Shown in pieces: positions 531-39,966 of a stretch of 39,966 bases of DNA. The stretch lies in assembly GCA_016195125.1 (NCBI GenBank), contig JACQAD010000083.1, forward strand, positions 1-39,966, given 5' to 3'. Below the pieces are notes generated by a model. That model saw only the letters and a program-made list of their open reading frames with translations. It was not told where the DNA came from and did not search any database. Every line of letters begins with the position of its first letter. The stretch's first letter is position 1. The position numbers and the translations under genes were made by a program. The stretch comes from Magnetospirillum sp. Lineage in GTDB: Bacteria > Pseudomonadota > Alphaproteobacteria > Rhodospirillales > Magnetospirillaceae.

Positions 531-896
531 ATGGCCGAGTCCCGCATCGCCTCCGTCGAAGGCTTCCAGTTCTCGTTCCATCGCGAAGATCCCGAACGCC
601 CCATCCGCAAGGTTCTGGATCGCTGGGTGCTGCAGGATTGGACCTGCCAGGTGGAATACAAGGGTGACTGGTCCCACTTCACCATCCACGAATTCAATGA
701 CGGAGTGTTCGAACCCTCGGCCGTCCAGGGGGTGTTCAGCGATTTCGCCGGCGCCGCCGCGGTGGAGGTCACCACCCGCTGGCTGGAACGGCGCATCGAG
801 GAGAAGGATCTGCGCAACCGCCGCCAGCGCGATATCTTCCTGGGCGCCCTGGCCGTGGCCCTGGCCCTGGCCCTGGCCGCCATCTCGCTACGCTGA
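531..896 (+). CDS. Hypothetical protein with a C-terminal hydrophobic (membrane anchor) segment
   Basis: 121-aa ORF with a good SD (gagggag) and typical high-GC codon usage; ends RNRRQRD-IFLGALAVALALALAAISLR. Confidence 0.7.
   Translation: MAESRIASVEGFQFSFHREDPERPIRKVLDRWVLQDWTCQVEYKGDWSHFTIHEFNDGVFEPSAVQGVFSDFAGAAAVEVTTRWLERRIEEKDLRNRRQRDIFLGALAVALALALAAISLR
846..878 (+). repeat. Tandem GCCCTG hexamers encoding the Ala-Leu anchor
   Basis: gccctg gccgtg gccctg gccctg gccctg gcc. Confidence 0.6.
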
Positions 897-2242: not shown

Positions 2243-2764
2243 CTAATGCCGATAGTTCAGGCGGTCATCGAACAGGTCGCGCGGCCCGATCAGGTTGACG
2301 TGAACCGCACCCTTGTCGGTAAAGATATCCATGCTGGCGAAAACGGCCTCGGCCATGCGGAGGATGCTGCGCTCGCCCTCGAGAATCACTGGTGGCGACA
2401 GGCTGACCGTCGCCTCCGGCAGATGAAAGTCGGAGGTACACAATCCCAGCACCGTGTTGACGAGTTCAGCGGCGGTCTCGCGCAGGAACAAAGGTCGCTC
2501 CGCCTCCGATACCGGGTTATCGGCGGTAAGGCAGCCAAGCACCGTTTCGAGCAATTCCGGCTCGAAGCTGAAGGCGATCAGCAGGCCAATCGGCAATCCG
2601 AACCCAGCCACGGCGGTGATGTCGCTCAATCTTACTTGATCGATGCCACGATCATGGATGTCGAAGCCGTCGATACGCGCCGCCCCCTCGCTGGCCAGGA
2701 CGGAACTGGTCTGGCTCAGGATTGCCTCCATGGTTCTGGAGATGATGGCGGCATCAAAAGCCAC
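2243..2764 (-). CDS. CheX-like phosphatase
   Basis: GTG at 2764 with SD GGGAGG 8 nt upstream; ETAAELVNTVLG (E-x-x-N) and LSPPVIL motifs typical of the CheC/CheX family. Confidence 0.75.
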   Translation of the reverse strand: MAFDAAIISRTMEAILSQTSSVLASEGAARIDGFDIHDRGIDQVRLSDITAVAGFGLPIGLLIAFSFEPELLETVLGCLTADNPVSEAERPLFLRETAAELVNTVLGLCTSDFHLPEATVSLSPPVILEGERSILRMAEAVFASMDIFTDKGAVHVNLIGPRDLFDDRLNYRH

Positions 2765-2766
2765 GG

Positions 2767-2804
2767 CGCATCCCTCCCATATCCGAAAGGGATGGGAGGG
2801 AGCG
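2767..2804 (-). promoter_or_regulatory. Stem-loop occluding the SD of the CheX-like gene
   Basis: Perfect 10-bp inverted repeat tccctcccat (2771-2780) / atgggaggga (2792-2801), extended by cgc/gcg after a 1-nt bulge. Confidence 0.6.
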
Positions 2805-2908
2805 TATGTGACCAAATGTTGCGTTCAGCCGGTGCATACCACCAATGATACACGTAAGGCCGCCGGGCGCAAACAATGAAAAAGAAAGTTGCGTTAAATT
2901 ATCACCAA

Positions 2909-3976
2909 CTACACATTTGCGGCGGCGGCTCCCCGAGGCGGCTTGGGAAAGGTCCGGCCGAGATGTGTGCCCTTGGCCTCGACGAATTTCTTGCCGGTTT
3001 CATAGCCCAGCTCGAACATCCGCTCCAGGTTCGACCGCGACCAGTCCAGGGCGGTGGGTAGCCAATCCGGCGGAATATCGAACTGAACCTTGATCAGTTC
3101 CACATCCTGGCGCTTGGGGTGGTCCGAATTCCAGTCGTCGAGCATGTGCTCGAAGAAGGCCAGGTCGTGGCGGGTCAGCGAGATCAGCGGCAGGATCAGG
3201 TTCTGTCCCCAGGCCTGCCACAGATTGGGCGGATCTTGGATATAGCCCTCGTTGCCGAAGGCGTCGAAGACCACCACGGTTCGAATCCCCTCGTCATGCT
3301 CCAGCAGACCCTGGAAGTTGAAGGCGTCCTCGGCGGCGCCTTCCAGGTACAGCTTGCCGCCGACCTCGGCCGGCGGATAGATGAAGGGATAGGCCAGGGT
3401 GGCGCCGAAATGTTCGTAATCCAGCACATCCTTGCCGAAAATGGCCATCTTGTGGTCGGTCAGGTTGTAGGCGTTGAGGTAGACGTCCTCCTCCACGCTC
3501 TTCAGGGCCTCGAAATCCACCATCTCCATGATGAAGGGGGCATTGGCGCACAGGCCCTTGCTGAAGAAATTGACGGTGCTGGGAGTGAAAAGCGCCCAGA
3601 ACATCTGGATCAGGTCGCTGTAGAACTTCTGGCGCTTGGTCATGTTGAACTGGTTCATGATCAGGTTGTAGCCGGGCATCTTGGACAGCAGCCAACGATA
3701 GGCGGCGGCGACACGGCTGCCCTTCATGAACACCTTGTAGTTCATGGGGATGTATTTGTAGATCTCGTCCGAGACGCCGAAATTGACGGAATTGCGAAGC
3801 GAGTCCTGCCGGCTCATCCCCTTGGGGGCCAGATAGGACAGCGCCACGCCGCCGCCGCCGCCGGTGGCGGAGATCACGTCGAACTTAACCCCGGCCTCAT
3901 CGAAGGCCAGCAGGGCGCCGGTCATCAGGGTGAAGTTGGGAGCACCGCCCCCCAGAACCAAAGCCATCTTATGCAT
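2909..3976 (-). CDS. Patatin-like protein with non-canonical catalytic motifs
   Basis: N-terminal ALVLGGG, FDVISATGGG at the GxSxG position, AYPFIYPP and YLEGA at the DGG position; SD ggggag; starts 14 nt after the PKS stop. Confidence 0.8.
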   Translation of the reverse strand: MHKMALVLGGGAPNFTLMTGALLAFDEAGVKFDVISATGGGGGVALSYLAPKGMSRQDSLRNSVNFGVSDEIYKYIPMNYKVFMKGSRVAAAYRWLLSKMPGYNLIMNQFNMTKRQKFYSDLIQMFWALFTPSTVNFFSKGLCANAPFIMEMVDFEALKSVEEDVYLNAYNLTDHKMAIFGKDVLDYEHFGATLAYPFIYPPAEVGGKLYLEGAAEDAFNFQGLLEHDEGIRTVVVFDAFGNEGYIQDPPNLWQAWGQNLILPLISLTRHDLAFFEHMLDDWNSDHPKRQDVELIKVQFDIPPDWLPTALDWSRSNLERMFELGYETGKKFVEAKGTHLGRTFPKPPRGAAAANV

Positions 3977-3990
3977 GTCGTTCTCCCCCC

Positions 3991-6900
3991 TCAGGAAGGT
4001 GGCGCCATCAGCTCGCGGCCGATGACGCGCTGGATGAAGGCCGCGTCCTCGAAAATGGAATAATGGGTGCCTTCGCGCATGTAGACCTGCATGCGCGAGT
4101 TGGTAAACCGGCCCCAGCCCAGGATGTCCTGGCGCGAGACATAGGGATCACCCTTGGAAACGAAACAGGTGATGGGAATGTCCCAGGGCTTTTCCGGGAC
4201 ATACCGGTACTTGCTGGTCATCTCGAATTCGGCGCGCACCGCCGGCAGCATCAGCTTGCGCAATTCCGGGTCGTCCAGGAACTGGTCGCTGGCGGCCATG
4301 TCGAACTGGCGGATGATCTCGGCAAAGATGGGATCGGGCTGGCGATAGGGCGGCAGCCGGGGCTGGTAGCCCGGCATGGCCGCCAGATGCAGGGCCAGAT
4401 CCTTCTCGAACGAGCCGATGATCCGCACCCGGTCGGGACAGCGGGCGCCCGAGCAGAACAGGTGGCGGGGCTTGTACTCGGTCTCGTGGATCAGGGTGCG
4501 GGCCACCTCGTAAAGGGTCAGCCCGCCCAGGCAATGGCCGAACAGGGCGAAGGGCAGATCCAGCTTGCCGGTTTCCTCCATCTCGTCGATGACGTGATCG
4601 ACGAAGACCTCCATGTCGCGCACCGGCGTCTCGCTGATGCGGGCCAGCCGCCCCGGCGGCTCGACGGCGATGACCTCGATGGCGGGATCGGTGGTCGCCG
4701 ACCAGGCCTGGAAGGCGGCCGAGCCGCCGCCGGCAAAGGGAAAGCAGAAGATGCGGAAACGGGGGTTGGCCCGGGGCGCCACCGTCACCAGCCAGCGCCC
4801 CGCCTTGGCGGCCGGAGCCGGTTTGGGCCGGGGAGCCTCGGCGACGGATTCGGGCTCCGCCATCGCCGGGGCCGTGGTCACCTCGGCCAGATCGGGCCAG
4901 ACATCGGCCACCAATTCGTCGATGCTCGGCCCCTTGATCAGCTTTACAGCCGGAATACGGATCCCGGTGGCGCTCTCCACCCGGTTGATCAGAGTGACGG
5001 ACATCAGCGAATCCAGCCCCAATTCGCGCAGGGGACGGTCGGGCTCGACCTTCTGGGACATGCCCAGGGTGGCCATGACCTGACGGGCCAGGAAATCGGT
5101 GATGGCGCCGCGCCGCCGGACGGGATCGCCGGTCTCCATCTGCCGCTTCAATTCCTCGATATCGGCGGCCAAGCCGCCGACTGCATTGCCCTGAAGCAGC
5201 GAGAAGAAGCGCGGCGGCACCTGGAACTGCCGTAGGAAGGTCGGCCAATCCACCGGAATCACCACTGCCTGGGCGGCATCGCCGTCGAACAGGGCGGCAA
5301 AGGCCTCGTGCCCCAAGTCCGGCTGGATATAGGTGATGCCGCGGGTCCGCCAGACCGCCTCCAGCCCATCGGCCATGCCGGCGCTGGCCCAGGCGCCCCA
5401 ATTGACTGACAGGGCGGGCAGCCCCCGGCGGCGGCGATGGGCGGCCAGGGCGTCGAGACAGGCATTGCCGGTGGTATAATTGCTCTGCCCGGCCGAGCCG
5501 ATCACCGACAGCACCGAGGAGAACAGCACGAAATCGGTCAGGGCCAGATCGCGGCTGTGCTTGTGCAGCCACCATGCAGCATCCAGCTTGGGGGCCAGCA
5601 CCTTACGGAAACGGCCCCAATCCATCTGATCAACCAGACCGTCATCCAGCACACCGGCACTGTGATAGATGCCGCGCAGCCCGGCCTTGTGCTTGGCCAG
5701 CAACTTGGCGACATCGGCCTCGCGCGAGGTGTCGGCCCTGGCGATGGTGACCTTGGCGCCCAGCCCTTCCAGCCGCGCCCTGACGGCGGCGGCATTGGCG
5801 GCCTTGTCGCCCTGGCGCGACACCAGGACCAGATGGGCGGCCTGGCGCGATCGCGCCAGCCACTCGGCCACCTCGATCCCCAAGGCGCCGAGGCCGCCGG
5901 TGACCACATAGGTGCCGCCCTCGGGGGTTGCGGCGCGGCGGGACGGCCTGGGCATTCGGGCCAGACGGGCGCACAGGCGCCGGCCGCCGCGCAGGGCTAC
6001 CTGGGATTCATTGTCCTCGGCCCCCAATTGCGCCGCCAGCAGCGCGGCATCGTCGCCGCCCTCCTCCACATCGATCAATCCGCCCCACAGGGCCGGCGCC
6101 TCCAGGGACAACGAGCGGCCAAAGCCCCACAAGCCGGCCCCCAGCACGTTGACCGGCGGCTCGGTGCCCTGGGCGGAGATCGCATTGCGGCTGACCAGGA
6201 ACAGCTTGGGCGCCACCAGGAAGGCGGTGCGTCCGGCCCCCAGAGCGCGGGCAAGGGCGAGAACCGAGCCGTAGAGGCGCTGTTGCGCGGCCTCGTCGCT
6301 CCAACTTTCCTCCGCCCCGCAATCCAGGCCACCCAGATGGACGATCCCGGCCCGCCCGGCCCCGGCCTCGGCGGCGAAGCCGGACAACAGGGCGCCAAAG
6401 CCCTCCACACTGTCGGGACATTGGGCGGCGGGGACCAGGCGGCAGGCGGCGCCGGTCCGGGCCAGGGCTGCCTGGACCTTGCCGGCATAGCCATCGCCAC
6501 CCAGCACCAGCCAGGTCACCGGCCCGGAGGCCTTGGCCGTCACTTGCGGCAACGCCACCTCGTCCCAGCGCGGGCCATAAAGCCAGCCGCCCTCGCCCTG
6601 GCCGGGCTTGAACAGGGAGGCCGGCAGCTTCTTGACCGCCAGCCCCTCGAACGCGGCCATGGGCCTGCCATCCGAATCAAAGGCCGAGATGTCGATGATG
6701 GTGATGTCGGGATCATGGCCGTTGGGCTTGCGGCGGCGGGCATGGACCCAGGCCTCGCGCTCCTCGGTGCGGGCGCCGGTGAAGCGCTCCAGCCCCAGGG
6801 GCAGATGGGCCAGCGAGCCCTCGGGCGGCGGCTGGGTGAAGTCGCCATGCTCCTCGATCACCGCCGGATAGACATGCAGGCAGGCGTCCAGAAGGGCCGG

Positions 6901-9900
6901 ATGCATGATTCCGTTGCCCAAGGGCGCCACCTGATCGGGCAGGCGGATGCGGGCCAGGGCCTCGCCCTCGCCCCGCCACAGGCTTTCGATGGCGCGGAAG
7001 GAGGCGCCGTAGCCCAGACCCAGGCTCTTCATCCCGGCGTAATAGCTGTCGGCCTTGACCGGAAACGAACAGCGCCGCTTCAGCGCCTTGGCGTCGAAGG
7101 CCGCGGTCTTGGCGCCGTTGGCGGCGCGGAGCCGGCCCCGCATATGGGTGCGCCACTCGTCCTCCTCCGCCCCCTGGCTGGACAGATGAAAGCCGGCGCC
7201 CTCGGCATCGGGCTCGATCACCATATGGCCCAGGCGCTCTTCGTCATCGCCCAGGACCAGGGCGTCGCCGTGGCTGAACTGGGAAATCTCCAGCGGCCCA
7301 TCGCCCAGCTTGTCGCGGGCACCCTCCAGGGCCGCCACCAGACCGGCGGTGGTCGGCAGGACGATGGCGCCGTGGACACGGTGATCGCCCAGCCAGCCGA
7401 AGCGCTCGCAGCTGAGCACGGTCTCGTACTGGGCCGCCGCCAGGGGCGAGCGCAGGCGGTTGCCCAGCAGCCCGGCGGCGATGGCACGGACCGGCGGACG
7501 CCCGCCCACCGGCTGGTAATCCTTGGTGGCCCAGACCCGCTCGTGCTGGAACGCATAGGTGGGCAAAGACAGGCGCCGCAGATCGAAGGGCGCGTCGAAA
7601 GCGGCCCAATCCGGGTCATGTCCGGCCCGGTAGAGGGCGGCCATGGTATCAAGCAGGGTCCGGCTCTCGGCCCCGCCCTTGCCCAAGGTGGGTAGCCAGT
7701 TCAGCCCCTCGGCGGCGACATTGGCGCGCCCCAGGGCCAGCAGCGCCCCGCCGGGGCCAATCTCGACGAAATCCTTGATGCCGCTGGCCGCCAGGGCCTG
7801 AACCGCATCGGCGAAGCGAACCGCCTGGCGGGCCTGCTCACACCAATAGCGGGGATCGGGCGCCTCTTTCTTGGACTGACCGGTCAGGGTCGAGACCCAG
7901 GCCAGTTTGGGCGCCTTGGCCTCGGCGGCGGCGGCGGCCCGTTCCAGCTCGGGCAGGGCCGCATCCATCAGCGGCGAGTGGAAGGCGTGGGAGACGGTCA
8001 GGGCCCTGGTGGCGATGCCCTGGGCCTCCAGCGCCGCCACCACCGGGGCCAGCGCCTCGGCAGCGCCCGAGATCACAATACCCTGGGGGCCGTTGACGGC
8101 GGCAATGCCTAGCCTGGCCGGATCGGCAGCGGCCAGGGCCTGGGCCACCACCGCTTCCTCGGCGAAGACCGCGACCATGCCGCCGCCCGCGGGCAAGGCC
8201 TGCATCATCCGGCCCCTGGTGCAGACCAGCCGGGCCGCATCGTCCAGACTATAGATGCCGGCGATCACGGCGGCGGCGAATTCGCCGACGGAATGGCCGC
8301 ACACCGCCTCGGGCTTGATGCCCCAGCCGCCCAGCATCTCCGCCAGGGCCCATTCCACGGCGAACAGGCAGGGCTGGGTGTAGCCGGTCTGATGGATAAG
8401 CTCGCCATCCTCGAACAGTATTTCGAGCAACGGCCGGTCGAGATGAGGCGACAACGCCGCCGCCGCACGGTCCAACGCCGCCTTGAAATCAGGCTCGATC
8501 CGGTAGAGCTCGCGGCCCATGCCGGCCATCTGGGCACCTTGGCCGCTGAACAGAAAGGCGATGCGCCGGGGCTGGGATTGACGCCGCGCCGCCTTGGGAT
8601 CGGCCTTGAAATCGGCCAGCCGCGCCGCCAGTTCCGCCGGCGACGATACCGTGACGGCGAAGCGGTGATCGAAATGCACCCGCCCCACCGCCATGGTGTG
8701 GCAGGTATCGGCCAGGGAAAGGGCAGGATCAGCCTCGGCCCGGGCGCGATGGCGCGCCGCATTGGCGTCCAGGGCCGGGGCCGACTTGGCCGACAGCACG
8801 AACAGATGATACGGCCGTTCTGGCGCACCGGAACGAGGCCGGCTTTCCGGCGCCTGCTCCATCACCGCGACCGCGTTGGTCCCGCCGATGCCCAGGGAAT
8901 TGACCAGGGCCCGGCGCGGATGGCCGAGCGGCGACGGCCAGGGACGCGTCTCGGTATTGACGAAGAAGGAGGTGCTGTCGATCTTCAGGCGCGGATTGGG
9001 CTTTTGAAAATTGATGGTGGGCGGAATCATCCCCTCACCCATGGCCAGGGCCGTCTTGATCATGGAGGCCAGCCCGGCCGATTGCTCGGAATGGCCGATA
9101 TTGGGCTTGGCCGAGCCGATGGGGCACTTGTCCCGGCGCCCGTCGCCGTCGAAGGCCCGCTGCAGCGCGGTGAACTCGCGCGGATCGCCAATGGCCGTGC
9201 CGGTGCCGTGGCATTCCACATAGCCGATGGACGCCGGATCGAAGCCGCTTTGGGCCAGGGCCGCCGTCATGACGTCGGTCTGGCCGCGCACGCTGGTCCC
9301 GGCATAGCTGGCCTTGCGGCCGCCATCGTTGTTGAGCGCCGTTCCCCTGATCACGCCGTAGATATGATCGCCATCGGCCAGGGCCTGATCGAGGCTCTTG
9401 AACAGCATGGCGGCGATGCCCGACGAGAACACGGTGCCGCCGGCTTCGGCATCGAAGGTGCGGATATGGCCGTCGGGCGAGAAGATGGAGCCCTTGACCC
9501 CCATATAGCCCGCCGCATGAGGCACCCGCATGGTGCCGGCCGCCGCCATGGCCATGGCGCATTCGCCATTGCGGATGGCGTTGACGGCCAGATGCACCAG
9601 GACCAGCGAGGTCGAGCAGGCCGTCTGGACGTTGAGGCTGGGTCCGGTCAGATTCAGCTTGAACGAGACGCGGGTGCCGGCGAAATCCTTATCGTTGCCG
9701 ATATGCAGCAGGCTGGCGGTGGCGCCACGGGAATCCGGGTGGTCGGCCAGCTCGTTCATCATGTAATTGGTGACGACGCTGCCGGTGGCGGCATAGACGC
9801 CCACCGCCCCGTGATCGCCGCCCGGCGGATAGCCCGCATCCTCGAAGGCCTCCCAGGCCACCTCCAGCAGGTGGCGCTGTTGCGGGTCGATCAGGCGGGC

Positions 9901-10158
9901 TTCGTGGGGGGAATAGCCGAAGAAGGCGGGATCGAAGCAATCATGCTCGGGGATCAGGAAGGCGGCCTTGACGTAATCGGGATCACGCAGGCGGGCCGGA
10001 TCGACCCCCGCCTCCAGCATCTGGGCATCGGAGAGGAAGGTAACGGCCTCGACGCCATCGAGCAGATTACGCCAATAGGCGCGCCAGTCAGCGGCACCGG
10101 CAAAGCGGCAAGCCATGCCGATGATGGCGATGTCCAAGGGCGTGCGTCGACCGTTCAT
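3991..10158 (-). CDS. Single-module type I polyketide synthase KS-AT-DH-KR-ACP-TE
   Basis: KS: TACSTSL, HGTGT, NIGH. AT: GQGAQ, GHSVG, HAFHS (malonyl-type). DH: HRVHGAIVLP, HPALLD. KR: TGGLGALG, LDD (B-type), YTTGN. ACP: GLDSL. TE: FPFAGG, GHCLG, GDP, GTHY. Start set at ATG 10158, just after the upstream stop; the ORF track extends to 10233. Confidence 0.95.
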   Translation of the reverse strand: MNGRRTPLDIAIIGMACRFAGAADWRAYWRNLLDGVEAVTFLSDAQMLEAGVDPARLRDPDYVKAAFLIPEHDCFDPAFFGYSPHEARLIDPQQRHLLEVAWEAFEDAGYPPGGDHGAVGVYAATGSVVTNYMMNELADHPDSRGATASLLHIGNDKDFAGTRVSFKLNLTGPSLNVQTACSTSLVLVHLAVNAIRNGECAMAMAAAGTMRVPHAAGYMGVKGSIFSPDGHIRTFDAEAGGTVFSSGIAAMLFKSLDQALADGDHIYGVIRGTALNNDGGRKASYAGTSVRGQTDVMTAALAQSGFDPASIGYVECHGTGTAIGDPREFTALQRAFDGDGRRDKCPIGSAKPNIGHSEQSAGLASMIKTALAMGEGMIPPTINFQKPNPRLKIDSTSFFVNTETRPWPSPLGHPRRALVNSLGIGGTNAVAVMEQAPESRPRSGAPERPYHLFVLSAKSAPALDANAARHRARAEADPALSLADTCHTMAVGRVHFDHRFAVTVSSPAELAARLADFKADPKAARRQSQPRRIAFLFSGQGAQMAGMGRELYRIEPDFKAALDRAAAALSPHLDRPLLEILFEDGELIHQTGYTQPCLFAVEWALAEMLGGWGIKPEAVCGHSVGEFAAAVIAGIYSLDDAARLVCTRGRMMQALPAGGGMVAVFAEEAVVAQALAAADPARLGIAAVNGPQGIVISGAAEALAPVVAALEAQGIATRALTVSHAFHSPLMDAALPELERAAAAAEAKAPKLAWVSTLTGQSKKEAPDPRYWCEQARQAVRFADAVQALAASGIKDFVEIGPGGALLALGRANVAAEGLNWLPTLGKGGAESRTLLDTMAALYRAGHDPDWAAFDAPFDLRRLSLPTYAFQHERVWATKDYQPVGGRPPVRAIAAGLLGNRLRSPLAAAQYETVLSCERFGWLGDHRVHGAIVLPTTAGLVAALEGARDKLGDGPLEISQFSHGDALVLGDDEERLGHMVIEPDAEGAGFHLSSQGAEEDEWRTHMRGRLRAANGAKTAAFDAKALKRRCSFPVKADSYYAGMKSLGLGYGASFRAIESLWRGEGEALARIRLPDQVAPLGNGIMHPALLDACLHVYPAVIEEHGDFTQPPPEGSLAHLPLGLERFTGARTEEREAWVHARRRKPNGHDPDITIIDISAFDSDGRPMAAFEGLAVKKLPASLFKPGQGEGGWLYGPRWDEVALPQVTAKASGPVTWLVLGGDGYAGKVQAALARTGAACRLVPAAQCPDSVEGFGALLSGFAAEAGAGRAGIVHLGGLDCGAEESWSDEAAQQRLYGSVLALARALGAGRTAFLVAPKLFLVSRNAISAQGTEPPVNVLGAGLWGFGRSLSLEAPALWGGLIDVEEGGDDAALLAAQLGAEDNESQVALRGGRRLCARLARMPRPSRRAATPEGGTYVVTGGLGALGIEVAEWLARSRQAAHLVLVSRQGDKAANAAAVRARLEGLGAKVTIARADTSREADVAKLLAKHKAGLRGIYHSAGVLDDGLVDQMDWGRFRKVLAPKLDAAWWLHKHSRDLALTDFVLFSSVLSVIGSAGQSNYTTGNACLDALAAHRRRRGLPALSVNWGAWASAGMADGLEAVWRTRGITYIQPDLGHEAFAALFDGDAAQAVVIPVDWPTFLRQFQVPPRFFSLLQGNAVGGLAADIEELKRQMETGDPVRRRGAITDFLARQVMATLGMSQKVEPDRPLRELGLDSLMSVTLINRVESATGIRIPAVKLIKGPSIDELVADVWPDLAEVTTAPAMAEPESVAEAPRPKPAPAAKAGRWLVTVAPRANPRFRIFCFPFAGGGSAAFQAWSATTDPAIEVIAVEPPGRLARISETPVRDMEVFVDHVIDEMEETGKLDLPFALFGHCLGGLTLYEVARTLIHETEYKPRHLFCSGARCPDRVRIIGSFEKDLALHLAAMPGYQPRLPPYRQPDPIFAEIIRQFDMAASDQFLDDPELRKLMLPAVRAEFEMTSKYRYVPEKPWDIPITCFVSKGDPYVSRQDILGWGRFTNSRMQVYMREGTHYSIFEDAAFIQRVIGRELMAPPS

Positions 10159-10174
10159 GGCTAAGAATCCGCTC

Positions 10175-10552
10175 TCACCATTCCTTGTCCTCGTCGTCAC
10201 CTTCGTCGGCGGCCATGAAGCCGCCACAGACATTCATCTCGCGCAAGCGGCCCAGGGCACGCTCGAATACCTCCTGCATGGCGGTGAGATAATCCAGCCA
10301 GGTCTCGATCGCCCACATCATCAGCTGCAATTGAAAATTGGCCACGCCGCCACCGGGCATGCCGCCGCCCATGGCCATGATCAAGGGCAGCATCTGCATG
10401 ATCTGGGCTGGCCCGAACCCGCCGCCGAAACCGCCGCCGAACCCCTGGGCGAAGCCTTGCCCCCGGCCAAATCCACTCGCATTACGAGCTTTTTCCCGTG
10501 ACTTTTTTCTTTTTTTTCTAATATCGTCGCCAGAACTATCTCCGGGAGCCAT
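10175..10552 (-). CDS. Small hypothetical protein: basic N-terminus, Gly/Phe repeats, Met-rich helix, acidic tail
   Basis: ORF ends 16 nt before the PKS start. ATG 10552 is preceded by aagg; alternative starts at 10576 and 10588. Confidence 0.6.
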   Translation of the reverse strand: MAPGDSSGDDIRKKRKKSREKARNASGFGRGQGFAQGFGGGFGGGFGPAQIMQMLPLIMAMGGGMPGGGVANFQLQLMMWAIETWLDYLTAMQEVFERALGRLREMNVCGGFMAADEGDDEDKEW

Positions 10553-10859
10553 GCCTTCAGTTGAATTATCTCGCATTTTAACCACCATCCGCCAACGAGT
10601 GTCGTTCCAGATATCATAGTGAACTAATCAACGTCTATTCATTGATAATGCCAGCCCTATGCTTTTTGCGGCCTCGGGTTATCACCTGATGGCCCATGAC
10701 AGCGGTTGTCGGGCACAATTCTTTCAGGCTCGCCTCGAACGAATGGTTGAGGCAATTGAACATCGGGCTAAACCAACGTAGGCTTAGCGCCGGGAACGGC
10801 CATGTGAAGAGGGCGCACCGGGCCATGAGACGTTCCTTGTGGGTGGAGCCAAGTCTCGA

Positions 10860-13800
10860 ATGAGTGTTCTTTCCGGATTCAGAGCCGCCGAGATCGTGCG
10901 AGCCGATGCCGAGGTTTCGCTGACTCGTGGCGTGGCCGGCGATGGCGCAAGATTGCTGGTCTTGACGCCGGTCTCCGATCAACCCTTGCCCGCCACCATC
11001 GATCGCCTGGACCACGAATTCTCGCTGCGAGCCGAACTTGAGGCCGAATGGGCGGCAATTCCCCTGGCCCTCGATCAGATCGGCGGGCGCTTGGCCCTGG
11101 TCCTGGCCGATCCCGGCGGCACGCCCCTGAGCCGCTTGATCAGCGCACGTCCCGGCGTGGCCCGCGCCACCGAGATCAGCCGCTGCCTGCGACTGGCGGT
11201 GACGGCGGCCCAGGCCCTGGCCAGGGTCCACGGCAAGGGCATCATCCACAAGGACGTCAACCCCGCCAACATCCTGGTGGACCCGGAGGGCAAATCCGCC
11301 CACCTCACCGGCTTCGGCATCGCCTCGCGCCTGATCCGCGAGCAGCGCCACAACGACGCCATGGAAACGGTGGCGGGCACCTTCGCCTATATGGCGCCCG
11401 AGCAGACCGGCCGCATGAACCGCTCGGTGGACTGGCGCAGCGATCTCTATTCCCTGGGCGCCACCTGCTACGAATTGTTCACCGGCAGCCTGCCGTTTTC
11501 CGCGAGCGACCCGGGGGAATGGGTTCATTGCCACATCGCCCGCAAGGCGATACCGCCCGCGGAGCGCGCCAGCGGCATCCCCGAGCAGGTCTCGGCCATC
11601 ATCATGAAGCTGCTGGCCAAGACCGCCGAGGATCGCTACCAGACCGCCACCGGGGCCGCCGCCGATTTCCAGCGCTGCCTGACCGAGTGGGAACGAAGCG
11701 GCCGCATCGAACCCTTCGCCCTGGCCGAACATGACCGCTCCGGCCAGCTCACCATCCCGGAACGCCTGTATGGCCGCGCGCGGGAATCGGCCACCTTGCT
11801 GGATTCCTTTGCTCGCGTCTCCGAGACCGGCACACCGGAACTGGTCCTGGTATCTGGCTATTCCGGGGTCGGCAAATCGGCCCTGGTCAATCAGATCCAC
11901 CCCGCCATGGTCGAGCGGGACGGTATGTTCGGGTCGGGCAAGTTCGACCAGCACAAGCGCGACATCCCCTACGCCACCTTCGCCCAGGCCTTCCACTCCC
12001 TGATCCGCCAGATTCTGTCCTCGTCGGAATCCGATATCCGACGCTGGTGCGAGGCCTTTCTGGATGCGCTGGGCCCCAACGGCCGCCAGATCATCGAGCT
12101 GATCCCCCAATTGGAGCTGGTGGTGGGCGAGCAGCCGCCCATGGTGGAATTGCCCCCCGGCGAGGCCCAGGTCCGCTTCCTGTCGGCATTCCGCCGCTTC
12201 GTCTCGGTGCTGGCACGCCCCGAACAGCCGCTGGTCCTGTTCCTCGACGACATGCAATGGATGGACAACGGCAGCATGAAGCTGCTGGAGCATCTGATGA
12301 CCAGCCCCGATGTCCGGCATTTGCTGGTCATCGGCAGCTACCGCGACAACGAGGTGGATTCCTCCCATCCGCTGATGCTGTCCATCGACGCGGTACGCAA
12401 GGGTGGACGACGGATCAGCGACATCGTCCTTGCCCCGCTGTCGGCGGACGATCTCAGCCGGATGGTGGCCGACACCCTGCGCTGCTCGCCCGAGCAGGCG
12501 GCCCCCCTGGTCCGGTTGATCCACCAAAAGACCGCCGGCAATCCGTTCTTCACCATCCAGTTCCTGACCACCTTGGTGGAAGATCGGCTGCTGGCCTACG
12601 ACCCGGCTCAGGATGCCTGGACCTGGGACATCGAGCGCATCGGCGCCATGGGCTTTTCCGACAACGTGGTCATGCTGATGGCCGCCAAGTTGCGGCGCCT
12701 GCCCGAGACCGACCAGGCCGAACTGCGCCGCATCGCCTGCCTGGGCAATGGCGCCAGTCTCGCCCTGTTGGGCCTGGTCTACGACCGTACCGAGCAGCAA
12801 TGCCTGGACGAGACCGAGGAAGCGGTGCGGAGCGGATTCCTGATCCGCAGCGGCGACCGGCTGGTCTTCGCCCATGACCGTATCCAGGAGGCGGCCTACC
12901 TCTCCATCCCCATCGCCGAGATGGTGGCATCCCATCTGCACATCGGACGGCGGATGATGGAACGGCTGAGCGCCGACGAGATCGAGGAGAACCTGTTCGA
13001 TCTGGTCCACCACCTCAATCTCGGCCGCCAGCTGCTGACCGGCGCCGACGAACGCGAGGCCATCGCCCGCTTCAATGCCGAGGCCGGGCGCAAGGCCAAA
13101 TCCTCTTCGGCCAATGCCTCGGCCCGCTCCTATTTCGCCCAGGCGCGGGCCTTGCTTTCCCCCGATTGCTGGGAGCGGAGCCACGACGAGACCTTCCGGC
13201 TCTACCTGGATCTGTCCGAGTGCGAATATCTGGTGGGCAACCACGAGCAGGCGGACGAGTTGTTCAACCTGCTGCTGGCCAAGGCGCGCTCCGAGGATCA
13301 GACCGCCCAGGTCTGGCGTCTGCGGTTCCGCATGTTCATGGTGTCGGGACGCTATGGCGACGCCGTCGCCGTGGCCATCACGGCCCTGGGGCAATTCGGC
13401 CTGACCTGCCCTGAAAACGAGGCCGAGACTGCCATCGCCGTGGATAATGCCCGCCGGGAAATGGCCGAGCATCTGAAAGGCCGCCACATCGCCGGTCTGG
13501 CCGACTTGCCGGAATGTTCGATTCCGGCGGTCCGCGCCCTGATCGGCCTGATCGCCGACGCCATTCCGGCGGTCTATCACGTGCGCCCGCTGCTCTATCC
13601 CTTTCTGGGCCTGAGCGGCATCAATCTGTCGCTGCGCCATGGCCTCACCGAGGATTCCTGCGCCGCCTTTTCCGGCTATTCAGTGTCTCTGGTCGGACGT
13701 TTCGAAGACTTCCGCACCGGGCTGGAATTCTCGGAACTGGCTTTGCAATTGGGGGAGCGCTACTCGGGGACGCCGCTGCGCGGTACCTTGCTGTTCCGCT

Positions 13801-16745
13801 ACGGCTATTTCGTGTCACCATGGAGCAAGCCCATCGCCACCATCATGCCGGTGCTGGAGGAAACCTTCCGCACCTGCCTGGATACCGGCAATCTGATCTA
13901 TGCCGCCTATGTGGCCTACGCCTCGGGCTGGATGCTGTTCGAAAAGGGTGAGCCGCTGGACGCGGTGCTGACCCACATGCACAAATATGCGCCCTTCGCC
14001 CGCAATTCGCGGATTCCCTTCGCCATCTTGATGCTGCGGCTGCAAGAGCTGTTCATCGCCGAATTGCAGGGCATCACCCTGGAGATCAATGACGGCGTCG
14101 CCGGCGAGGACAGCGCCGAGAAATCCTATGACGCCCTGGTCGGCACCGCCCATGGCTATGGCATCGCCTTCTATCACGTGATCCGGCAGATCACGCCCTA
14201 TCTGATGGGACGGTTCGAGGATTCCCTGGCCGCCTCCCACGAGACGGCGCCCATGCTGCCCAAGATCTCGTCCTCGGTGATCGAATCCTCGCACCATTTC
14301 TACGGCGCCCTGGCCATCACCGCCCTTTACCCCAATGCCGATGAAGCCCGCCGCGCCCAGCTCGACGACTGGCTGGCCGAACATCGGCGCAAGCTGACCC
14401 TGTGGGCCGCCAATTGCGCCGAGACCTTCGCCGCCCGCGCCATGCTGGTCGAGGCGGAAATCGCCGCCATCGGCAATCGCCACAACGAGGCCATGCGCCT
14501 TTACGAAGATGCCATCCTGGCGGCGCGTGAATACGGCCAGCTTCATTGCGAGGCGATCGCCAACGAGCGCGCCGGCCACTTCTGCCTTGATCAGGGCCTG
14601 CCCAGCATCGCCGAAACCTATATGCGCAATGCCCGCTATTGCTATGCCCGCTGGGGAGCCCAGGCCAAGGTCAAGCTGCTGGACCAGCAATTTCCCCGCC
14701 TGGCCGAGGGCGCGCAGTCCAATGCCGCCGCCGCCGCGCTGATCTATAGCGGCCACGCCGACGGGCTGGACCTGATGACCGTCATCAAGGCCCAGCAGGC
14801 GGTATCGGGCGAGATCGTCCTGAGCAAGCTGGTGGAATCCCTGCTGCGCATCGTGGTCGAGCATGCCGGTGCCGATCGCGGCCTGTTGATCCTGCGCCAT
14901 GGCGACAGTGTTCGAATCGAGGCCGAGGCCACAATCGAGGGCGACCGCATCGAGGTGGTCAGCTGCGCCGCGCCGCCCACTTCCGACGATCTGCCGCAAT
15001 CGGTGCTGCAATACGTCACCCGCACCCGCGACCGGGTGGTCATCGACAATGCCGCCAATCCCAATACCTTCATTACCGAAGGCTATGCCGGACGAACCGG
15101 GGTCAAGTCCATCCTGTGCCTGCCCGTGGTCACCCATGGCGCGCTGTCGGCGGTGCTTTACCTGGAGAACCGGCTGGCGGCGGGAGCCTTCACCCGCAAC
15201 CGTATCGCGGTGCTCGACCTGCTGGCCACCCAGGCCTCCATCTCCCTGGAAAACGCCCTTCTCTACACCGAAATGGAAGAGCGGGTCCGCGATCGCACCG
15301 GCGAATTGGCCGCCTCGCTGGAGACGGTCAAGACCAAGAGCGATCAGGTTTCGGCCCTGCTGGACAATTCCGGCCAGGGCTTCTTGTCCTTCCGCGGTGA
15401 TCTTTTGGTCGAACCGGAATTCAGCCACGCCTGCCTGACCTTCTTCGGCGGCTCGCCGGCCGGCAAGCCGGTGGACCTGTTGCTGTTCTCGGGCGACGAC
15501 CATGCCCGTGATACGCTGAGAGCCTGTATCGAGGAGGCCCTGGACGAGGAGGATCCCGATCGCTGCGAGCTGTATCTGTCGCTGCTGCCCGAGGAAATCA
15601 CCATCGCCGAGCGGGTTCTGAAGGCCGAGTTCAAGCCCCTGAACCAGGCCATCATGGTGGTGCTGACCGATATCACCGGTGAAAAAGCCCTGGCCGCTCA
15701 GGTGGCGCGCGAGCGGATACGCCTCGAAATGATCGTGTCGGCGGTCACCTACGGCAACGATTTCTTCGATGCCGTGGCCGAATTCGCCAGCTTTGCCCAG
15801 GATGGTCCGGGAATGTGGCGCGGCCGCGATCGGGCCGTGCTCTACCGCACGATCCACACCTTCAAGGGCACCTTCAACCAGTTGGGCTTCCACCACCTGC
15901 CCGCCATCCTGCACGACGTCGAATCCTCGCTGCAGCGCCTGGGCGACCGGGCCAGCGGCGCCGATGCCGCCACCATGGTCTTCGCCCACGACTGGCAAAG
16001 CATCCTCAACGACGACCTGGAAACCGTGCGCGAGGCCCTGGGCGACGATTTCATGATGCGCCGTGGCGTGGTCACCGTTTCGCCGGAACAGGCCAAGCGC
16101 TTCGAGCGCTTTGCCCGAGGCCTGCTCGACGAGAACGAAGTTCCGTCCGTCATCGAGGAAATCGCCGCCATCCGCACCATCTCGCTGCGGCAATCCCTGG
16201 CCGAGTTCGACAAGATGATCCATCAGATCTCGGCGCGCCTGGAGAAGGAAGTGGCGCCGCTGGTGGTGGGCGGCGACGACGTGCGCATCGACCCCGACGT
16301 GTTCGGGCCGTTCCTGCGCTCGCTGGGTCACGTTTTCCGCAACGCCATCGACCACGGCATCGAAGACCCGGATTCCCGTCTGGCCGCCGGCAAGAGCGAA
16401 GTGGGCTCCATCACCTGCGACATCGTCAGGGAGGGGGATCTTCTGGACATCAAGATCGCCGATGACGGCGCCGGCATCGACGTCGATACCCTGCGCCGCC
16501 GCGCCGCCGAGATCACCGCCCAGGACGTCAGCGGCTGGGATCTGACCGATCTGGTCTTCGCCGACGGCCTCAGTATCCGGAGCGAAGCCACCGAACTGTC
16601 CGGGCGCGGTGTCGGCATGACCGCGGTTCGCGCCAGTGTCGAGGATTTGGGCGGCAAGGTCTGCATCCATTCCGAGCCCGGTCACGGCACATCCTTCAGC
16701 TTCCGCATCCCCTTTCCCCCGCCAGCTGACGGCCGCAATCCATGA
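10860..16745 (+). CDS. Multidomain sensor: Ser/Thr kinase-like domain, STAND/AAA ATPase, helical region, GAF, PAS-like, Hpt and CheA-type HATPase
   Basis: Kinase: IIHKDVNPANIL, LTGFG, GTFAYMAPEQ, SDLYSLG. Walker A GYSGVGKS; Walker B LFLDD. GAF: KSILCLP...LYLEN. PAS-like: LDNSGQGFL. Hpt: IHTFKG. HATPase: RNAIDHGIE, DDGAGID, SGRGVGM. ATG 10860 with SD ggag. Confidence 0.9.
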   Translation: MSVLSGFRAAEIVRADAEVSLTRGVAGDGARLLVLTPVSDQPLPATIDRLDHEFSLRAELEAEWAAIPLALDQIGGRLALVLADPGGTPLSRLISARPGVARATEISRCLRLAVTAAQALARVHGKGIIHKDVNPANILVDPEGKSAHLTGFGIASRLIREQRHNDAMETVAGTFAYMAPEQTGRMNRSVDWRSDLYSLGATCYELFTGSLPFSASDPGEWVHCHIARKAIPPAERASGIPEQVSAIIMKLLAKTAEDRYQTATGAAADFQRCLTEWERSGRIEPFALAEHDRSGQLTIPERLYGRARESATLLDSFARVSETGTPELVLVSGYSGVGKSALVNQIHPAMVERDGMFGSGKFDQHKRDIPYATFAQAFHSLIRQILSSSESDIRRWCEAFLDALGPNGRQIIELIPQLELVVGEQPPMVELPPGEAQVRFLSAFRRFVSVLARPEQPLVLFLDDMQWMDNGSMKLLEHLMTSPDVRHLLVIGSYRDNEVDSSHPLMLSIDAVRKGGRRISDIVLAPLSADDLSRMVADTLRCSPEQAAPLVRLIHQKTAGNPFFTIQFLTTLVEDRLLAYDPAQDAWTWDIERIGAMGFSDNVVMLMAAKLRRLPETDQAELRRIACLGNGASLALLGLVYDRTEQQCLDETEEAVRSGFLIRSGDRLVFAHDRIQEAAYLSIPIAEMVASHLHIGRRMMERLSADEIEENLFDLVHHLNLGRQLLTGADEREAIARFNAEAGRKAKSSSANASARSYFAQARALLSPDCWERSHDETFRLYLDLSECEYLVGNHEQADELFNLLLAKARSEDQTAQVWRLRFRMFMVSGRYGDAVAVAITALGQFGLTCPENEAETAIAVDNARREMAEHLKGRHIAGLADLPECSIPAVRALIGLIADAIPAVYHVRPLLYPFLGLSGINLSLRHGLTEDSCAAFSGYSVSLVGRFEDFRTGLEFSELALQLGERYSGTPLRGTLLFRYGYFVSPWSKPIATIMPVLEETFRTCLDTGNLIYAAYVAYASGWMLFEKGEPLDAVLTHMHKYAPFARNSRIPFAILMLRLQELFIAELQGITLEINDGVAGEDSAEKSYDALVGTAHGYGIAFYHVIRQITPYLMGRFEDSLAASHETAPMLPKISSSVIESSHHFYGALAITALYPNADEARRAQLDDWLAEHRRKLTLWAANCAETFAARAMLVEAEIAAIGNRHNEAMRLYEDAILAAREYGQLHCEAIANERAGHFCLDQGLPSIAETYMRNARYCYARWGAQAKVKLLDQQFPRLAEGAQSNAAAAALIYSGHADGLDLMTVIKAQQAVSGEIVLSKLVESLLRIVVEHAGADRGLLILRHGDSVRIEAEATIEGDRIEVVSCAAPPTSDDLPQSVLQYVTRTRDRVVIDNAANPNTFITEGYAGRTGVKSILCLPVVTHGALSAVLYLENRLAAGAFTRNRIAVLDLLATQASISLENALLYTEMEERVRDRTGELAASLETVKTKSDQVSALLDNSGQGFLSFRGDLLVEPEFSHACLTFFGGSPAGKPVDLLLFSGDDHARDTLRACIEEALDEEDPDRCELYLSLLPEEITIAERVLKAEFKPLNQAIMVVLTDITGEKALAAQVARERIRLEMIVSAVTYGNDFFDAVAEFASFAQDGPGMWRGRDRAVLYRTIHTFKGTFNQLGFHHLPAILHDVESSLQRLGDRASGADAATMVFAHDWQSILNDDLETVREALGDDFMMRRGVVTVSPEQAKRFERFARGLLDENEVPSVIEEIAAIRTISLRQSLAEFDKMIHQISARLEKEVAPLVVGGDDVRIDPDVFGPFLRSLGHVFRNAIDHGIEDPDSRLAAGKSEVGSITCDIVREGDLLDIKIADDGAGIDVDTLRRRAAEITAQDVSGWDLTDLVFADGLSIRSEATELSGRGVGMTAVRASVEDLGGKVCIHSEPGHGTSFSFRIPFPPPADGRNP

Positions 16746-17659
16746 GCTTCAATCGTCTGAAATTTCCGCCGGCCATGGCGGCGGTCCTGACGCGCAGCCG
16801 GGACTACCTCCAAGAGGAGATCGGACTGAAGGTCGAGCGGGCTAAACCGCGTACCGGCAGCATGGATTCATTGCAATTGCGCGATGTCACCTCCGTGGTT
16901 CAAACCAGTGGTCCCATCCAGTTGCGGATCGCCTTCAGCTTCGACCGTTCGCTCCTCCAGCATATTCGCAGCGTGGTCACCGCCGGCCTGCACATCGCGC
17001 CCCATGAAAAGGAATTGTTCCTGCGCGAGACCGCCGGCGAGGTCGTCAACTCCATCCTGGGCCATGCCACCGCCGACCTTGCGGAGAAGGACAACGACGT
17101 CATCTTGTCGCCGCCGACAATTCTTGATGAAGGCAAGCTCATACATCGCCCCAAAAAGGCGATTTTTACCTCAATCGAAATGTCGACTGTTCGTGGTATA
17201 GCTGACATCAATTTCATCGGTCCGGCGGAGCTGTTCGATGGGGAACTGAATGTCTTGGGTGACGAGGAGAAAAAGGGGGAAGGCATGCACCCGTTGAAGG
17301 TCATGATCGTCGACGATTCGCTTCTGACCGTGCGCACACTGACCGGGATGCTCACCGAAATGGGACACCTGGTGGTACAGACCGCCGGCACAGGCGCCAA
17401 GGCGCGGGAGGTTTATGGCGAGGTCAAGCCCGATCTCGTCACCATGGATATCACCATGCCCGATATGGACGGTATCGAGGCGACCACCGCCATTCTGACC
17501 GACTTTCCCACCGCCAACATCATCATGGTCACCTCCCATGGTCAGCAAGGCATGGTGATGAAGGCGGTCAAGGCCGGAGCCAAGGGCTATGTCCTCAAGC
17601 CGATCAAGCCCGACAAGCTTCGGGACATGATCGCCCGCGTCTTCAAGACCTCGCCTTGA
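16742..17659 (+). CDS. CheX-like domain fused to a CheY-like receiver domain
   Basis: N-half has ETAGEVVNSILG and LSPPTIL; C-half has VMIVDDS, DLVTMDITMPDMDG, MVTS, YVLKP. ATGA overlap with the upstream gene. Confidence 0.88.
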   Translation: MSFNRLKFPPAMAAVLTRSRDYLQEEIGLKVERAKPRTGSMDSLQLRDVTSVVQTSGPIQLRIAFSFDRSLLQHIRSVVTAGLHIAPHEKELFLRETAGEVVNSILGHATADLAEKDNDVILSPPTILDEGKLIHRPKKAIFTSIEMSTVRGIADINFIGPAELFDGELNVLGDEEKKGEGMHPLKVMIVDDSLLTVRTLTGMLTEMGHLVVQTAGTGAKAREVYGEVKPDLVTMDITMPDMDGIEATTAILTDFPTANIIMVTSHGQQGMVMKAVKAGAKGYVLKPIKPDKLRDMIARVFKTSP

Positions 17660-20184: not shown

Positions 20185-20187
20185 GAT

Positions 20188-21651: not shown

Positions 21652-21824
21652 CCTGGACGCCCCCTTTGAACATTGTTCACGGATGCAGGGTAACACCCCG
21701 ATTGGACTTGATCAAATTTAAGGCAGCTGCCCAGCCATGCCGAATCATGAAGCTTTTGTTCCGCACAGTGCAAATGGCCTGTGCTACCCTGCCTGCCTAA
21801 TTCGCCACCGGGTATGGGAATACG

Positions 21825-25151: not shown

Positions 25152-25163
25152 GGATAGCGGACA

Positions 25164-34921: not shown

Positions 34922-34957
34922 GGCTCTCTCCCGCCGTCCTGGGACGGTTCCGGGGGC

Positions 34958-36360: not shown

Positions 36361-39966
<3,606 letters not shown>

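What the first reader, a model, noticed from the sequence alone, without database searches (positions are those of the whole stretch)
2909..10552. Candidate new system: small Gly/Phe protein + single-module Cys-TE PKS + pseudo-patatin operon
Seen: three tightly spaced co-oriented genes (gaps of 16 and 14 nt). The PKS has intact KS, malonyl-type AT, DH, B-type KR and ACP motifs but no ER, loading module, PPTase, tailoring enzyme or exporter nearby. Both hydrolase-fold components are altered: the TE has Cys for Ser and the patatin lacks its Ser/Asp. Known: lone modules often act iteratively, and KR+DH without ER gives enoyl/polyene or hydroxy chains; PHA synthases use a GxCxG nucleophile; some patatin-like proteins are granule-associated. 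I know of no characterised cluster with this composition. Inference A: a PKS-fed polyester/lipid-inclusion system (Cys-TE as acyl-transferring polymerase, patatin as lipid binder, small protein as coat). Inference B: synthesis of a small lactone/polyene signal.
Basis: partly seen in the sequence, partly recalled or inferred. Interest (0 to 1): 0.85.

Follow-up and report, generated by a model that had tools for sequence, protein, structure and literature searches.

The report
Polyketide–patatin signalling cassette with Trp-tailed protein
A conserved three-gene bacterial cassette (a one-module polyketide synthase, a patatin-fold protein whose usual catalytic residues are replaced, and a small protein that almost always ends in tryptophan) sits beside sensor genes in many proteobacteria and likely makes a small lipid-like signal that those sensors would read.

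Summary
The genes form a conserved cassette under purifying selection. PKS and patatin are adjacent in 9 of 61 related genomes and also occur in Elstera, Roseospira, Azospirillum B510 and soil alphaproteobacteria. In 63 of 68 informative metagenome loci this patatin family directly follows the Cys-thioesterase. The patatin is probably not dead. Glu replaces Asp throughout; one clade has Cys at the nucleophile elbow, while the window's clade has Gly there and only Cys or Ser at residue 143, which suggests a migrated nucleophile. The small protein ends in Trp in 33 of 34 aligned cluster proteins. PKS-less patatins adjoin signalling genes in 22 of 36 contexts, against 4 of 50 for canonical patatins. 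Best reading (0.5): a synthase–sensor cassette for a fatty-acid or lactone-like signal. A polyester granule is unlikely. No description was found in 10 literature searches. Product and activities are untested.

The parts
10175..10576 (-). Small Trp-tailed protein (133 aa): disordered charged and Gly/Phe/Met-rich N-part, conserved helix (W..ExWLDYLxAMQxV), acidic tail ending in Trp; no known family
   Evidence: dN/dS 0.24-0.32
3991..10158 (-). Single-module type I PKS, KS-AT-DH-KR-ACP-TE (2055 aa); KS with NDKD...VQTACSTS, closest to hybrid NRPS/PKS-type KSs; the only type I KS found in this assembly
3991..4788 (-). C-terminal thioesterase of type II (RifR-like) ancestry with Cys1876, Asp2004 (after strand 7) and His2032; most constrained part of the PKS
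   Evidence: dN/dS 0.08-0.10
2909..3976 (-). Divergent patatin ('EGA' family, Gly-elbow clade): GGGAPN loop, Gly39 at the elbow, Cys143, Glu212; patatin fold
10839..16745 (+). Divergent cytoplasmic sensor: kinase-like, STAND (AAA_16), TPR-like, GAF, Hpt and HATPase domains (CheA-like output)
   Evidence: same position in 7 of 8 genus relatives, the eighth contig being cut there, and in Rhodospirillum and Roseospira records
16742..17659 (+). CheX-receiver fusion, overlapping the sensor's stop codon
   Evidence: CheX-like hit after the sensor in 5 relatives whose fetched stretch reached it
17656..18591 (+). GGDEF protein in the same run; possible output, linkage in relatives not tested
2243..2815 (-). 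CheX-family gene downstream of the patatin, same strand
   Evidence: follows the patatin in 6 of 8 genus relatives and in L040 and L041

Best explanation
The cassette likely makes a small fatty-acid- or lactone-like signal that neighbouring sensor proteins would read. Shown: gene content, motifs, co-occurrence and sensor adjacency. Inferred steps: (1) the KS takes a starter from a separate carrier (an AMP-ligase/SDR/ACP trio in the long soil clusters; a primary acyl-ACP or acyl-CoA in the window's reduced form), extends it with malonate, and KR plus DH leave a hydroxy or enoyl chain; (2) the Cys-TE holds the chain as a thioester and cyclises or transfers it rather than simply hydrolysing it; (3) the patatin is an active Cys/Glu acyl-enzyme whose nucleophile has moved from the elbow to Cys143, and it releases, converts or turns over the signal; without a PKS it would act on primary acyl donors; (4) the Trp-tailed protein is an adaptor for the PKS complex; (5) the STAND-CheA-like kinase with CheX/CheY (or a STAND-adenylate cyclase, MCP or histidine kinase elsewhere) converts the signal into motility or second-messenger output.
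For: PKS directly upstream of the patatin in 8 of 8 genus relatives that carry the close orthologue. The TE orthologue is found in the same 9 of 61 genomes. Reverse search: 63 of 68 metagenome TE loci with at least 1 kb downstream have the patatin within 700 bp; the other 5 have an AC-STAND gene next, and 3 of those have the patatin after it. 13 of 14 PKS-bearing GTDB loci include a STAND, MCP/Cache or CheX gene, and Azospirillum B510 has ligase-Cache-MCP-TEII-small-PKS-patatin. PKS-less patatins: adjacent signalling gene in 22 of 36 contexts (27 of 68 raw loci; 23 of 68 adjacent genes after collapsing) against 17 of 477 distant genes and 4 of 50 canonical patatins from 9 of the same genomes. 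The partners are unrelated sensor types, some periplasmic (4HB MCP, sCache), which favours a diffusible molecule over one protein interface. Residue pattern: Glu212 in 155 of 155; Gly-elbow clade Cys143 in 119 of 121, otherwise Ser; Cys-elbow clade Cys39 in 33 of 33 with Tyr143 in 34 of 34. Cys-TEs with the Asp after strand 7 (ObiF1, SulM) close small rings (PMC11298585, passages). Purifying selection on all three genes.
Against: No product, activity or expression data. The two largest PKS-less contexts (13 Chromobacterium-type and 10 Rhodocyclaceae loci) mostly lack an immediately adjacent signalling gene. The window has no loading genes, so its starter is unknown. The position of Cys143 relative to the active site could not be measured, and coupling analysis is weak (Neff 135; G141-G40 rank 137, G141-D217 rank 117). 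The Asp position is also explained by type II ancestry. One of 13 PKS copies checked has an in-frame stop, and several soil MAG copies are in pieces. The invariant Trp tail is not explained by this model. Samples were the best 80 of 219 and of at least 545 hits, related loci are not independent, gene calls came from my own heuristic, and the signalling exemplars came from these same neighbourhoods.
Confidence: 0.5

Rival explanations
1. The patatin is a non-catalytic (or single-turnover, D14/KAI2-like) receptor that binds the PKS product and passes the information to the sensor; PKS-less copies are 'solo' receptors that eavesdrop on other species.
For: Ser replaced by Gly in 119 of 119 ungapped Gly-clade rows. 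One-way dependence: the PKS comes with the patatin, but 0 of 10 tested PKS-less patatin genomes had the TE orthologue. The KR-bearing PKS pairs with the Gly clade (29 of 29) and the KR-less PKS with the Cys clade (27 of 27).
Against: One receptor would have to dock on many unrelated sensors, some with periplasmic input. Only Cys or Ser occurs at position 143. The KR/patatin pairing is a single change on the TE tree, so it is one event.
Confidence: 0.15
2. The small protein is the substrate: the PKS acylates it or extends its C-terminal Trp (a RiPP-polyketide hybrid), the patatin processes it, and the STAND-TPR protein senses the modified peptide.
For: Terminal Trp in 33 of 34 aligned small proteins against 6 of 941 other genes. 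It is kept whether or not the stop overlaps the next start. The KS is closest to hybrid NRPS/PKS KSs such as ClbC and ClbK, which extend products of upstream NRPS modules (PMC10794256, passage). The STAND-cyclase partner matches TIGR03903, the TOMM kinase/cyclase, below its cut-off, and such kinases accompany ribosomal precursor peptides (PMC2887384, passage).
Against: The window has no enzyme to activate a peptide C-terminus, no dedicated protease and no exporter. The residues before the Trp vary freely. A few soil clusters have an upstream ORF without a terminal Trp (L132, L141, L151). PKS-less patatins keep the sensor link without the small protein. Homology between the two small-protein types is not statistically shown (hhalign E 0.074).
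Confidence: 0.15
3. PKS-fed polyester or lipid inclusion: Cys-TE as polymerase, patatin as granule binder, small protein as coat.
For: GHCLG resembles the PhaC lipase box (recalled); the small protein has a conserved helix with a hydrophobic pattern and low-complexity arms.
Against: The TE is RifR-like (E 1e-43) and has no PhaC domain. Two full PhaC_N genes lie elsewhere in the genome. No phasin or PhaE match for 34 members. The neighbours are sensors, and an intact DH would remove the hydroxyl needed for a 3-hydroxy polyester.
Confidence: 0.07
4. A defence- or stress-type circuit in which the STAND-cyclase makes a cyclic nucleotide that activates the patatin as a lipase effector, as in CBASS CapV/CapE.
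For: The best structural matches are CapE (Z 24.8) and CapV (Z 23.9), and AC-STAND genes are frequent neighbours (23 of 30 long metagenome loci).
Against: PlpD scores about the same (Z 23.4) and is the best sequence match. There is no PADLOC hit for either patatin type. The window's sensor has a CheA-like output and no cyclase, and MCP, HK and GGDEF partners are not defence outputs.
Confidence: 0.05
5. The PKS makes a special envelope lipid or acyl substituent, and the adjacency to sensors reflects co-regulation only.
For: AMP-ligase/FabG/ACP trios often supply acyl groups to glycans (recalled); Magnetospirillaceae are rich in signalling genes.
Against: No recurring glycosyltransferase or flippase among the clustered neighbours. 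Canonical patatins do not show the link, and there is no sigma-28-like enrichment upstream.
Confidence: 0.05

Closest known systems
DSF/BDSF fatty-acid quorum sensing (rpfB-rpfF-rpfC/rpfR; recalled, no call)
   Same: An acyl-thioester-releasing enzyme sits beside an acyl-CoA ligase and a sensor, and an enoyl fatty-acid product is plausible.
   Different: No crotonase-type RpfF; a type I PKS, a Cys-TE, a divergent patatin and a small protein take its place, and the sensors are STAND proteins, MCPs or varied histidine kinases.
ObiF1 / SulM ring-closing Cys-thioesterases (PMC11298585, passages)
   Same: Cys nucleophile, Asp after strand 7, His; these TEs group with type II TEs.
   Different: Here the TE is on a lone PKS module rather than an NRPS; the motif is HCL rather than SulM's QCN; and it has a lid insertion of about 30 aa relative to RifR.
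Patatin phospholipases PlpD, CapV, CapE
   Same: Same fold (VIA Z 23-25) and glycine-rich loop.
   Different: GGGAP or GGGP instead of GGGxR/K, Gly or Cys instead of Ser, Glu instead of Asp, and a conserved Cys143 in one clade; 11-17% identity.
TOMM/NHLP-Burk clusters with kinase/cyclase fusion (TIGR03903; PMC2887384, passage)
   Same: A small ribosomal protein, a modifying machinery and a large STAND kinase/cyclase occur together.
   Different: The modifier is a PKS, not a cyclodehydratase; the STAND partner scores 558 bits against a cut-off of 705.75.
PHA synthase systems (PhaC/PhaE/phasin)
   Same: GxCxG nucleophile in an alpha/beta-hydrolase fold; a small helical protein nearby.
   Different: The TE is of type II thioesterase descent and fused to a PKS; no PhaC, PhaE or phasin family match; the genome has separate phaC genes.

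Membership tests
Canonical patatin phospholipase | Patatin fold / PF01734 | tested here: met
Canonical patatin phospholipase | Ser in GxSxG | tested here: not met
   Gly39 in the window and in 120 of 120 homologues; Cys in the sister clade
Canonical patatin phospholipase | Asp in DGG/DGA | tested here: not met
   Glu in 155 of 155 locus rows and 120 of 120 homologues
PHA synthase system | GxCxG Cys nucleophile | tested here: met
   GHCLG in 19 of 19 PKS loci reached through the patatin
PHA synthase system | PhaC homology (PhaC_N domain) | tested here: not met
   TE is PF00975 and RifR-like; PhaC_N matches lie on other contigs
PHA synthase system | Phasin or PhaE partner | tested here: not met
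   No Pfam family below E 0.001 for any of 34 small proteins
PHA synthase system | Polyester product and granules | not testable with these tools
   needs chemistry and microscopy
ObiF1/SulM-type ring-forming TE | Cys, Asp after strand 7, His triad | tested here: met
   C86, D214 and H242 invariant in the 16-row TE alignment; definition from PMC11298585 passages
ObiF1/SulM-type ring-forming TE | NRPS context; Gln-Cys-Asn motif (SulM) | tested here: not met
   PKS context, His-Cys-Leu
ObiF1/SulM-type ring-forming TE | Beta-lactone or beta-lactam formation | not testable with these tools
   needs an assay
DSF (rpf) system | Crotonase-family RpfF synthase (recalled) | tested here: not met
   No crotonase domain among the cassette or scanned neighbour proteins
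DSF (rpf) system | Adjacent sensor and acyl-CoA ligase | tested here: inconclusive
   Sensors are present but of other architectures; a fatty-acid CoA ligase is present in L052 and B510 but not in the window
TOMM / NHLP-Burk | TIGR03903 kinase/cyclase above its cut-off | tested here: not met
   558 bits against 705.75 for L048's partner
TOMM / NHLP-Burk | YcaO cyclodehydratase in the cluster | tested here: inconclusive
   None among the 96 neighbours scanned; not all neighbours were scanned
CBASS / Pycsar with patatin effector | Defence-family match for effector and cyclase | tested here: not met
   No PADLOC match for either patatin; the cyclase domain gives only weak PycC matches (E 1e-12 at best)
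Hybrid NRPS-PKS module | Hybrid-type KS (NDKD...VQTACSTS; motif recalled) | tested here: met
   NDKD in 40 of 40 metagenome copies covering it; top PDB KS hits include ClbC, ClbK and entries named hybrid NRPS/PKS
Hybrid NRPS-PKS module | Upstream NRPS module | tested here: not met
   Upstream genes are the small protein, or AMP-ligase/SDR/ACP

The most novel reading that the evidence does not exclude
A polyketide synthase modifies a ribosomally made protein at its invariant C-terminal tryptophan, a patatin with a migrated Cys/Glu active site processes it, and a STAND sensor reads it: a new class of RiPP-polyketide signalling circuit.
Probability: 0.12. Interest if true: 0.95.

Novelty: categorically new. 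Interest (0 to 1): 0.76.

Why it matters
If it makes a signal, this would be a bacterial communication system built from parts no known system uses. It would also supply a candidate ligand class for STAND adenylate-cyclase and STAND-kinase sensors, whose inputs are largely unknown (own knowledge). Apart from that, the 'EGA' patatins (at least 219 GTDB stretches for the Gly clade alone) suggest a patatin chemistry with Cys/Glu and an apparent nucleophile migration, testable with three point mutants. Cultured hosts exist (Azospirillum B510, Paramagnetospirillum caucaseum, Roseospira visakhapatnamensis), and a link to motility in magnetospirilla or a rice endophyte would be directly testable.

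Tried and rejected
Complex prediction of TE + patatin + small protein: no verdict, so it is used neither way. Search for longer, fused patatin forms: none at E <= 1e-20, which is weak evidence. RNA runs: none was listed. ESM Atlas: a homologue gave only patatin clusters, and the small protein could not be searched. An AF2 model of a soil-type small protein was low-confidence (pLDDT 65) with no Foldseek match. A sigma-28-like promoter scan showed no enrichment over the opposite strand. A sigma-70/terminator scan was at chance level. The upstream DNA alignment gave no convincing shared motif. Earlier-findings look-ups returned nothing. Paper searches with no description of this system: (listings and abstract starts). 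bioRxiv 2025.08.11.669332 was read in passages and is irrelevant. The idea that the terminal Trp is only a by-product of a TGG-TGA/GTG start overlap was rejected, because it persists where the gap is 16-50 nt. The KR/patatin-type pairing was rejected as independent co-evolution evidence, being one change on the tree. Cys conservation in the metagenome set was not counted as evidence, because GHCLG was a search pattern. An evenly drawn class sample had the TE orthologue in 1 of 400 genomes, so the cassette is patchy.
Full report
Observation. The three minus-strand genes are real: a small gene ending at 10175, a 2055-aa PKS (10158-3991) and a 355-aa patatin (3976-2909), with gaps of 16 and 14 nt. 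Pfam gives KS-AT-DH-KR-ACP-TE without ER, and every catalytic motif is present. The small gene's start aligns at ATG 10576 in all 8 upstream regions compared, giving 133 aa. This is the only type I KS found in the assembly (assembly 79.6% complete), which has two PPTase-family matches elsewhere. Against two relatives, dN/dS is 0.13-0.14 for the patatin, 0.24-0.27 for the PKS, 0.08-0.10 for the TE and 0.24-0.32 for the small gene. The closest named records are a Phaeospirillum MAG (92% patatin identity) and Paramagnetospirillum caucaseum (59%).

Co-occurrence. Of 61 related genomes, 9 including the window's carry the close patatin orthologue, and the same 9 carry the TE orthologue (E <= 3e-138; all other matches 1e-31 or weaker). 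In all 8 relatives the PKS lies directly upstream of the patatin. The small gene and a divergent STAND kinase are seen in 7, the eighth contig being cut there. A GTDB scan found 219 patatin relatives; of the best 80, 14 have the PKS within 10 kb (Elstera, Rhodospira, Rhodospirillum, Roseospira, Acetobacteraceae, soil alphaproteobacteria), and all 19 PKS loci examined keep GHCLG. The reverse scan with the TE found at least 545 metagenome stretches. Of the best 80, 68 have at least 1 kb downstream; 63 have the patatin within 700 bp and the other 5 have an adenylate-cyclase-STAND gene first, followed by the patatin in 3. Long soil versions read TEII, PPTase, small protein, AMP-ligase, FabG-like SDR, ACP, PKS, patatin, plus AC-STAND, so the window holds a reduced form. 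Azospirillum B510 plasmid pAB510d has ligase, Cache, MCP, TEII, small protein (ending in Trp), PKS, patatin. The cassette is patchy: 1 of 400 genomes in a class sample. One of 13 PKS copies checked has an in-frame stop.

The patatin. The fold is patatin (pLDDT 91.5; VIA Z 24.8 CapE, 23.9 CapV, 23.4 PlpD). The family has Glu for the catalytic Asp in 155 of 155 locus rows and splits into two clades (tree of 109 of 156 rows after dropping near-duplicates and short rows). One clade has Cys at the nucleophile elbow (33 of 33) and Tyr at position 143 (34 of 34). The window's clade has Gly at the elbow and Cys143 in 119 of 121 rows, Ser in the other 2. In a partly overlapping set of 120 homologues the counts are 116 Cys and 4 Ser. 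Complementary Cys positions, with Ser as the only substitute, point to a migrated nucleophile (inference). I could not measure distances. Mean-field coupling links residues 141-149 to the 190-198 segment and weakly to G40 and D217, at low depth (Neff 135). KR-bearing PKSs pair with the Gly clade (29 of 29) and KR-less PKSs with the Cys clade (27 of 27), but this is one change on the TE tree. PKS-linked Gly-clade patatins form one branch (37 rows, support 96) apart from the PKS-less ones (53 rows, support 92). None of 10 PKS-less genomes tested had the TE orthologue (several are incomplete MAGs). A Cys-clade copy followed by an MCP lies on contig C261, which by synteny with relatives continues the window's left end. 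It also occurs in 7 PKS-less relatives fetched, followed by an MCP in at least 4.

13 of the 14 PKS loci include a STAND kinase or cyclase, an MCP with Cache protein, or CheX; the fourteenth is cut just upstream. For 68 PKS-less loci, 27 have an immediately adjacent signalling gene. Collapsed to 36 syntenic contexts and counting the first locus of each, the figure is 22 of 36 (23 of 68 adjacent genes), against 17 of 477 distant genes. As a control, 50 canonical patatins from 9 of the same genomes had such a neighbour in 4 cases. Against this, the two largest contexts (13 Chromobacterium-type and 10 Rhodocyclaceae loci) mostly lack one, although the latter have hybrid kinases two genes away. 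Gene calls were heuristic and the exemplar domains came from these neighbourhoods. The partners (AC-STAND, kinase-STAND-HK, 4HB MCP, PAS and GAF kinases, GGDEF, LytTR) are unrelated, and some sense outside the cytoplasm, whereas the patatins show no hydrophobic segment. This favours a diffusible molecule as the link (inference).

The TE and KS. The TE is of type II descent (RifR, E 1e-43), with Cys, Asp after strand 7 and His invariant and 71% mean column identity. PMC11298585 (passages) reports this arrangement for the ring-closing Cys-TEs of ObiF1 and SulM and also for type II TEs, so it is suggestive rather than diagnostic. The KS carries NDKD in 40 of 40 metagenome copies, and its top PDB matches include ClbC, ClbK and hybrid NRPS/PKS entries. 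Such KSs extend products of upstream NRPS modules (PMC10794256, passage); that they also accept chains from separate ligase-ACP loaders is my recollection. A trans-loaded starter is therefore more likely than plain iterative polyene synthesis.

The small protein. A profile search gave 26 hits; of the 25 short ones retrieved (one 1277-aa hit dropped), 23 end in Trp. Soil clusters have a longer protein in the same slot. Of 34 aligned sequences of both types, 33 end in Trp, against 6 of 941 other genes. A few soil clusters lack the Trp-ending ORF. The two types share a similar helix, but the profile match is not significant (E 0.074). No Pfam family matches. It was seen only with the PKS. An adaptor with a C-terminal docking motif is my working reading; a substrate role is the boldest one, encouraged by the sub-threshold TIGR03903 match of the STAND partner and by the pairing of such kinases with precursor peptides (PMC2887384, passage).

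Comparison and verdict. It fails membership of PHA synthase systems, canonical patatins, rpf/DSF, TOMM and CBASS/Pycsar on tested features, and it most likely works like a signal synthase-sensor pair. Ten searches of the open library found no description. Subscription papers and supplementary BGC tables were not seen and may list the cluster. Best explanation 0.5; receptor-patatin 0.15; protein-modifying hybrid 0.15; polyester 0.07; defence 0.05; envelope lipid 0.05. The cassette, its residue patterns and the sensor association are shown; every chemical step is inferred.

Noticed in passing
G000:C261:1424-2581 (L003), beyond the window's left end by synteny: A Cys-elbow 'EGA' patatin (ACIG, EGA) followed by a 4HB MCP; in relatives an sCache protein and a ParA-like gene follow. 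It is also present in genomes without the PKS.
   Followed up: partly
L135 and L189 (one metagenome contig): Both cassette types (KR-less with Cys-clade patatin; KR-bearing with Gly-clade patatin) face each other with two AC-STAND genes between them.
   Followed up: partly
window 19237-28483: Alpha-E, circularly permuted ATP-grasp, DUF2126 amidoligase and transglutaminase genes: a recognisable peptide-ligase neighbourhood (known type, recalled), apparently unrelated to the PKS.
   Followed up: no
window 31921-39966: Type I secretion set (HlyD, ABC transporter, outer-membrane efflux protein) on the minus strand, divergent from a large FecR/FG-GAP repeat protein that runs off the window.
   Followed up: partly
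window 531-896: A 121-aa conserved protein without a Pfam or NCBIfam match, between the OlsB-like gene and msrA; 81-85% identical in genus relatives.
   Followed up: no
L061, L063, L065, L066, L083, L086, L100: A RebB-family (R-body) gene directly follows the PKS-less patatin in 7 Chromobacterium loci.
   Followed up: no
L081:9989-11776, L091:9992-11533: Andreprevotia patatins carry C-terminal extensions (595 and 513 aa in all) with no Pfam match.
   Followed up: no
L020 (G005), PKS codon about 1611: In-frame stop between KR and ACP in one relative's PKS.
   Followed up: partly
metagenome PKS copies: 6 of 68 ACP motifs read NSL instead of DSL.
   Followed up: no
window 10839-16745: The kinase-like domain has HKDVNP and LTGFG in place of the usual Hanks motifs and may be a pseudokinase; a paralogue lies on contig C255.
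   Followed up: no
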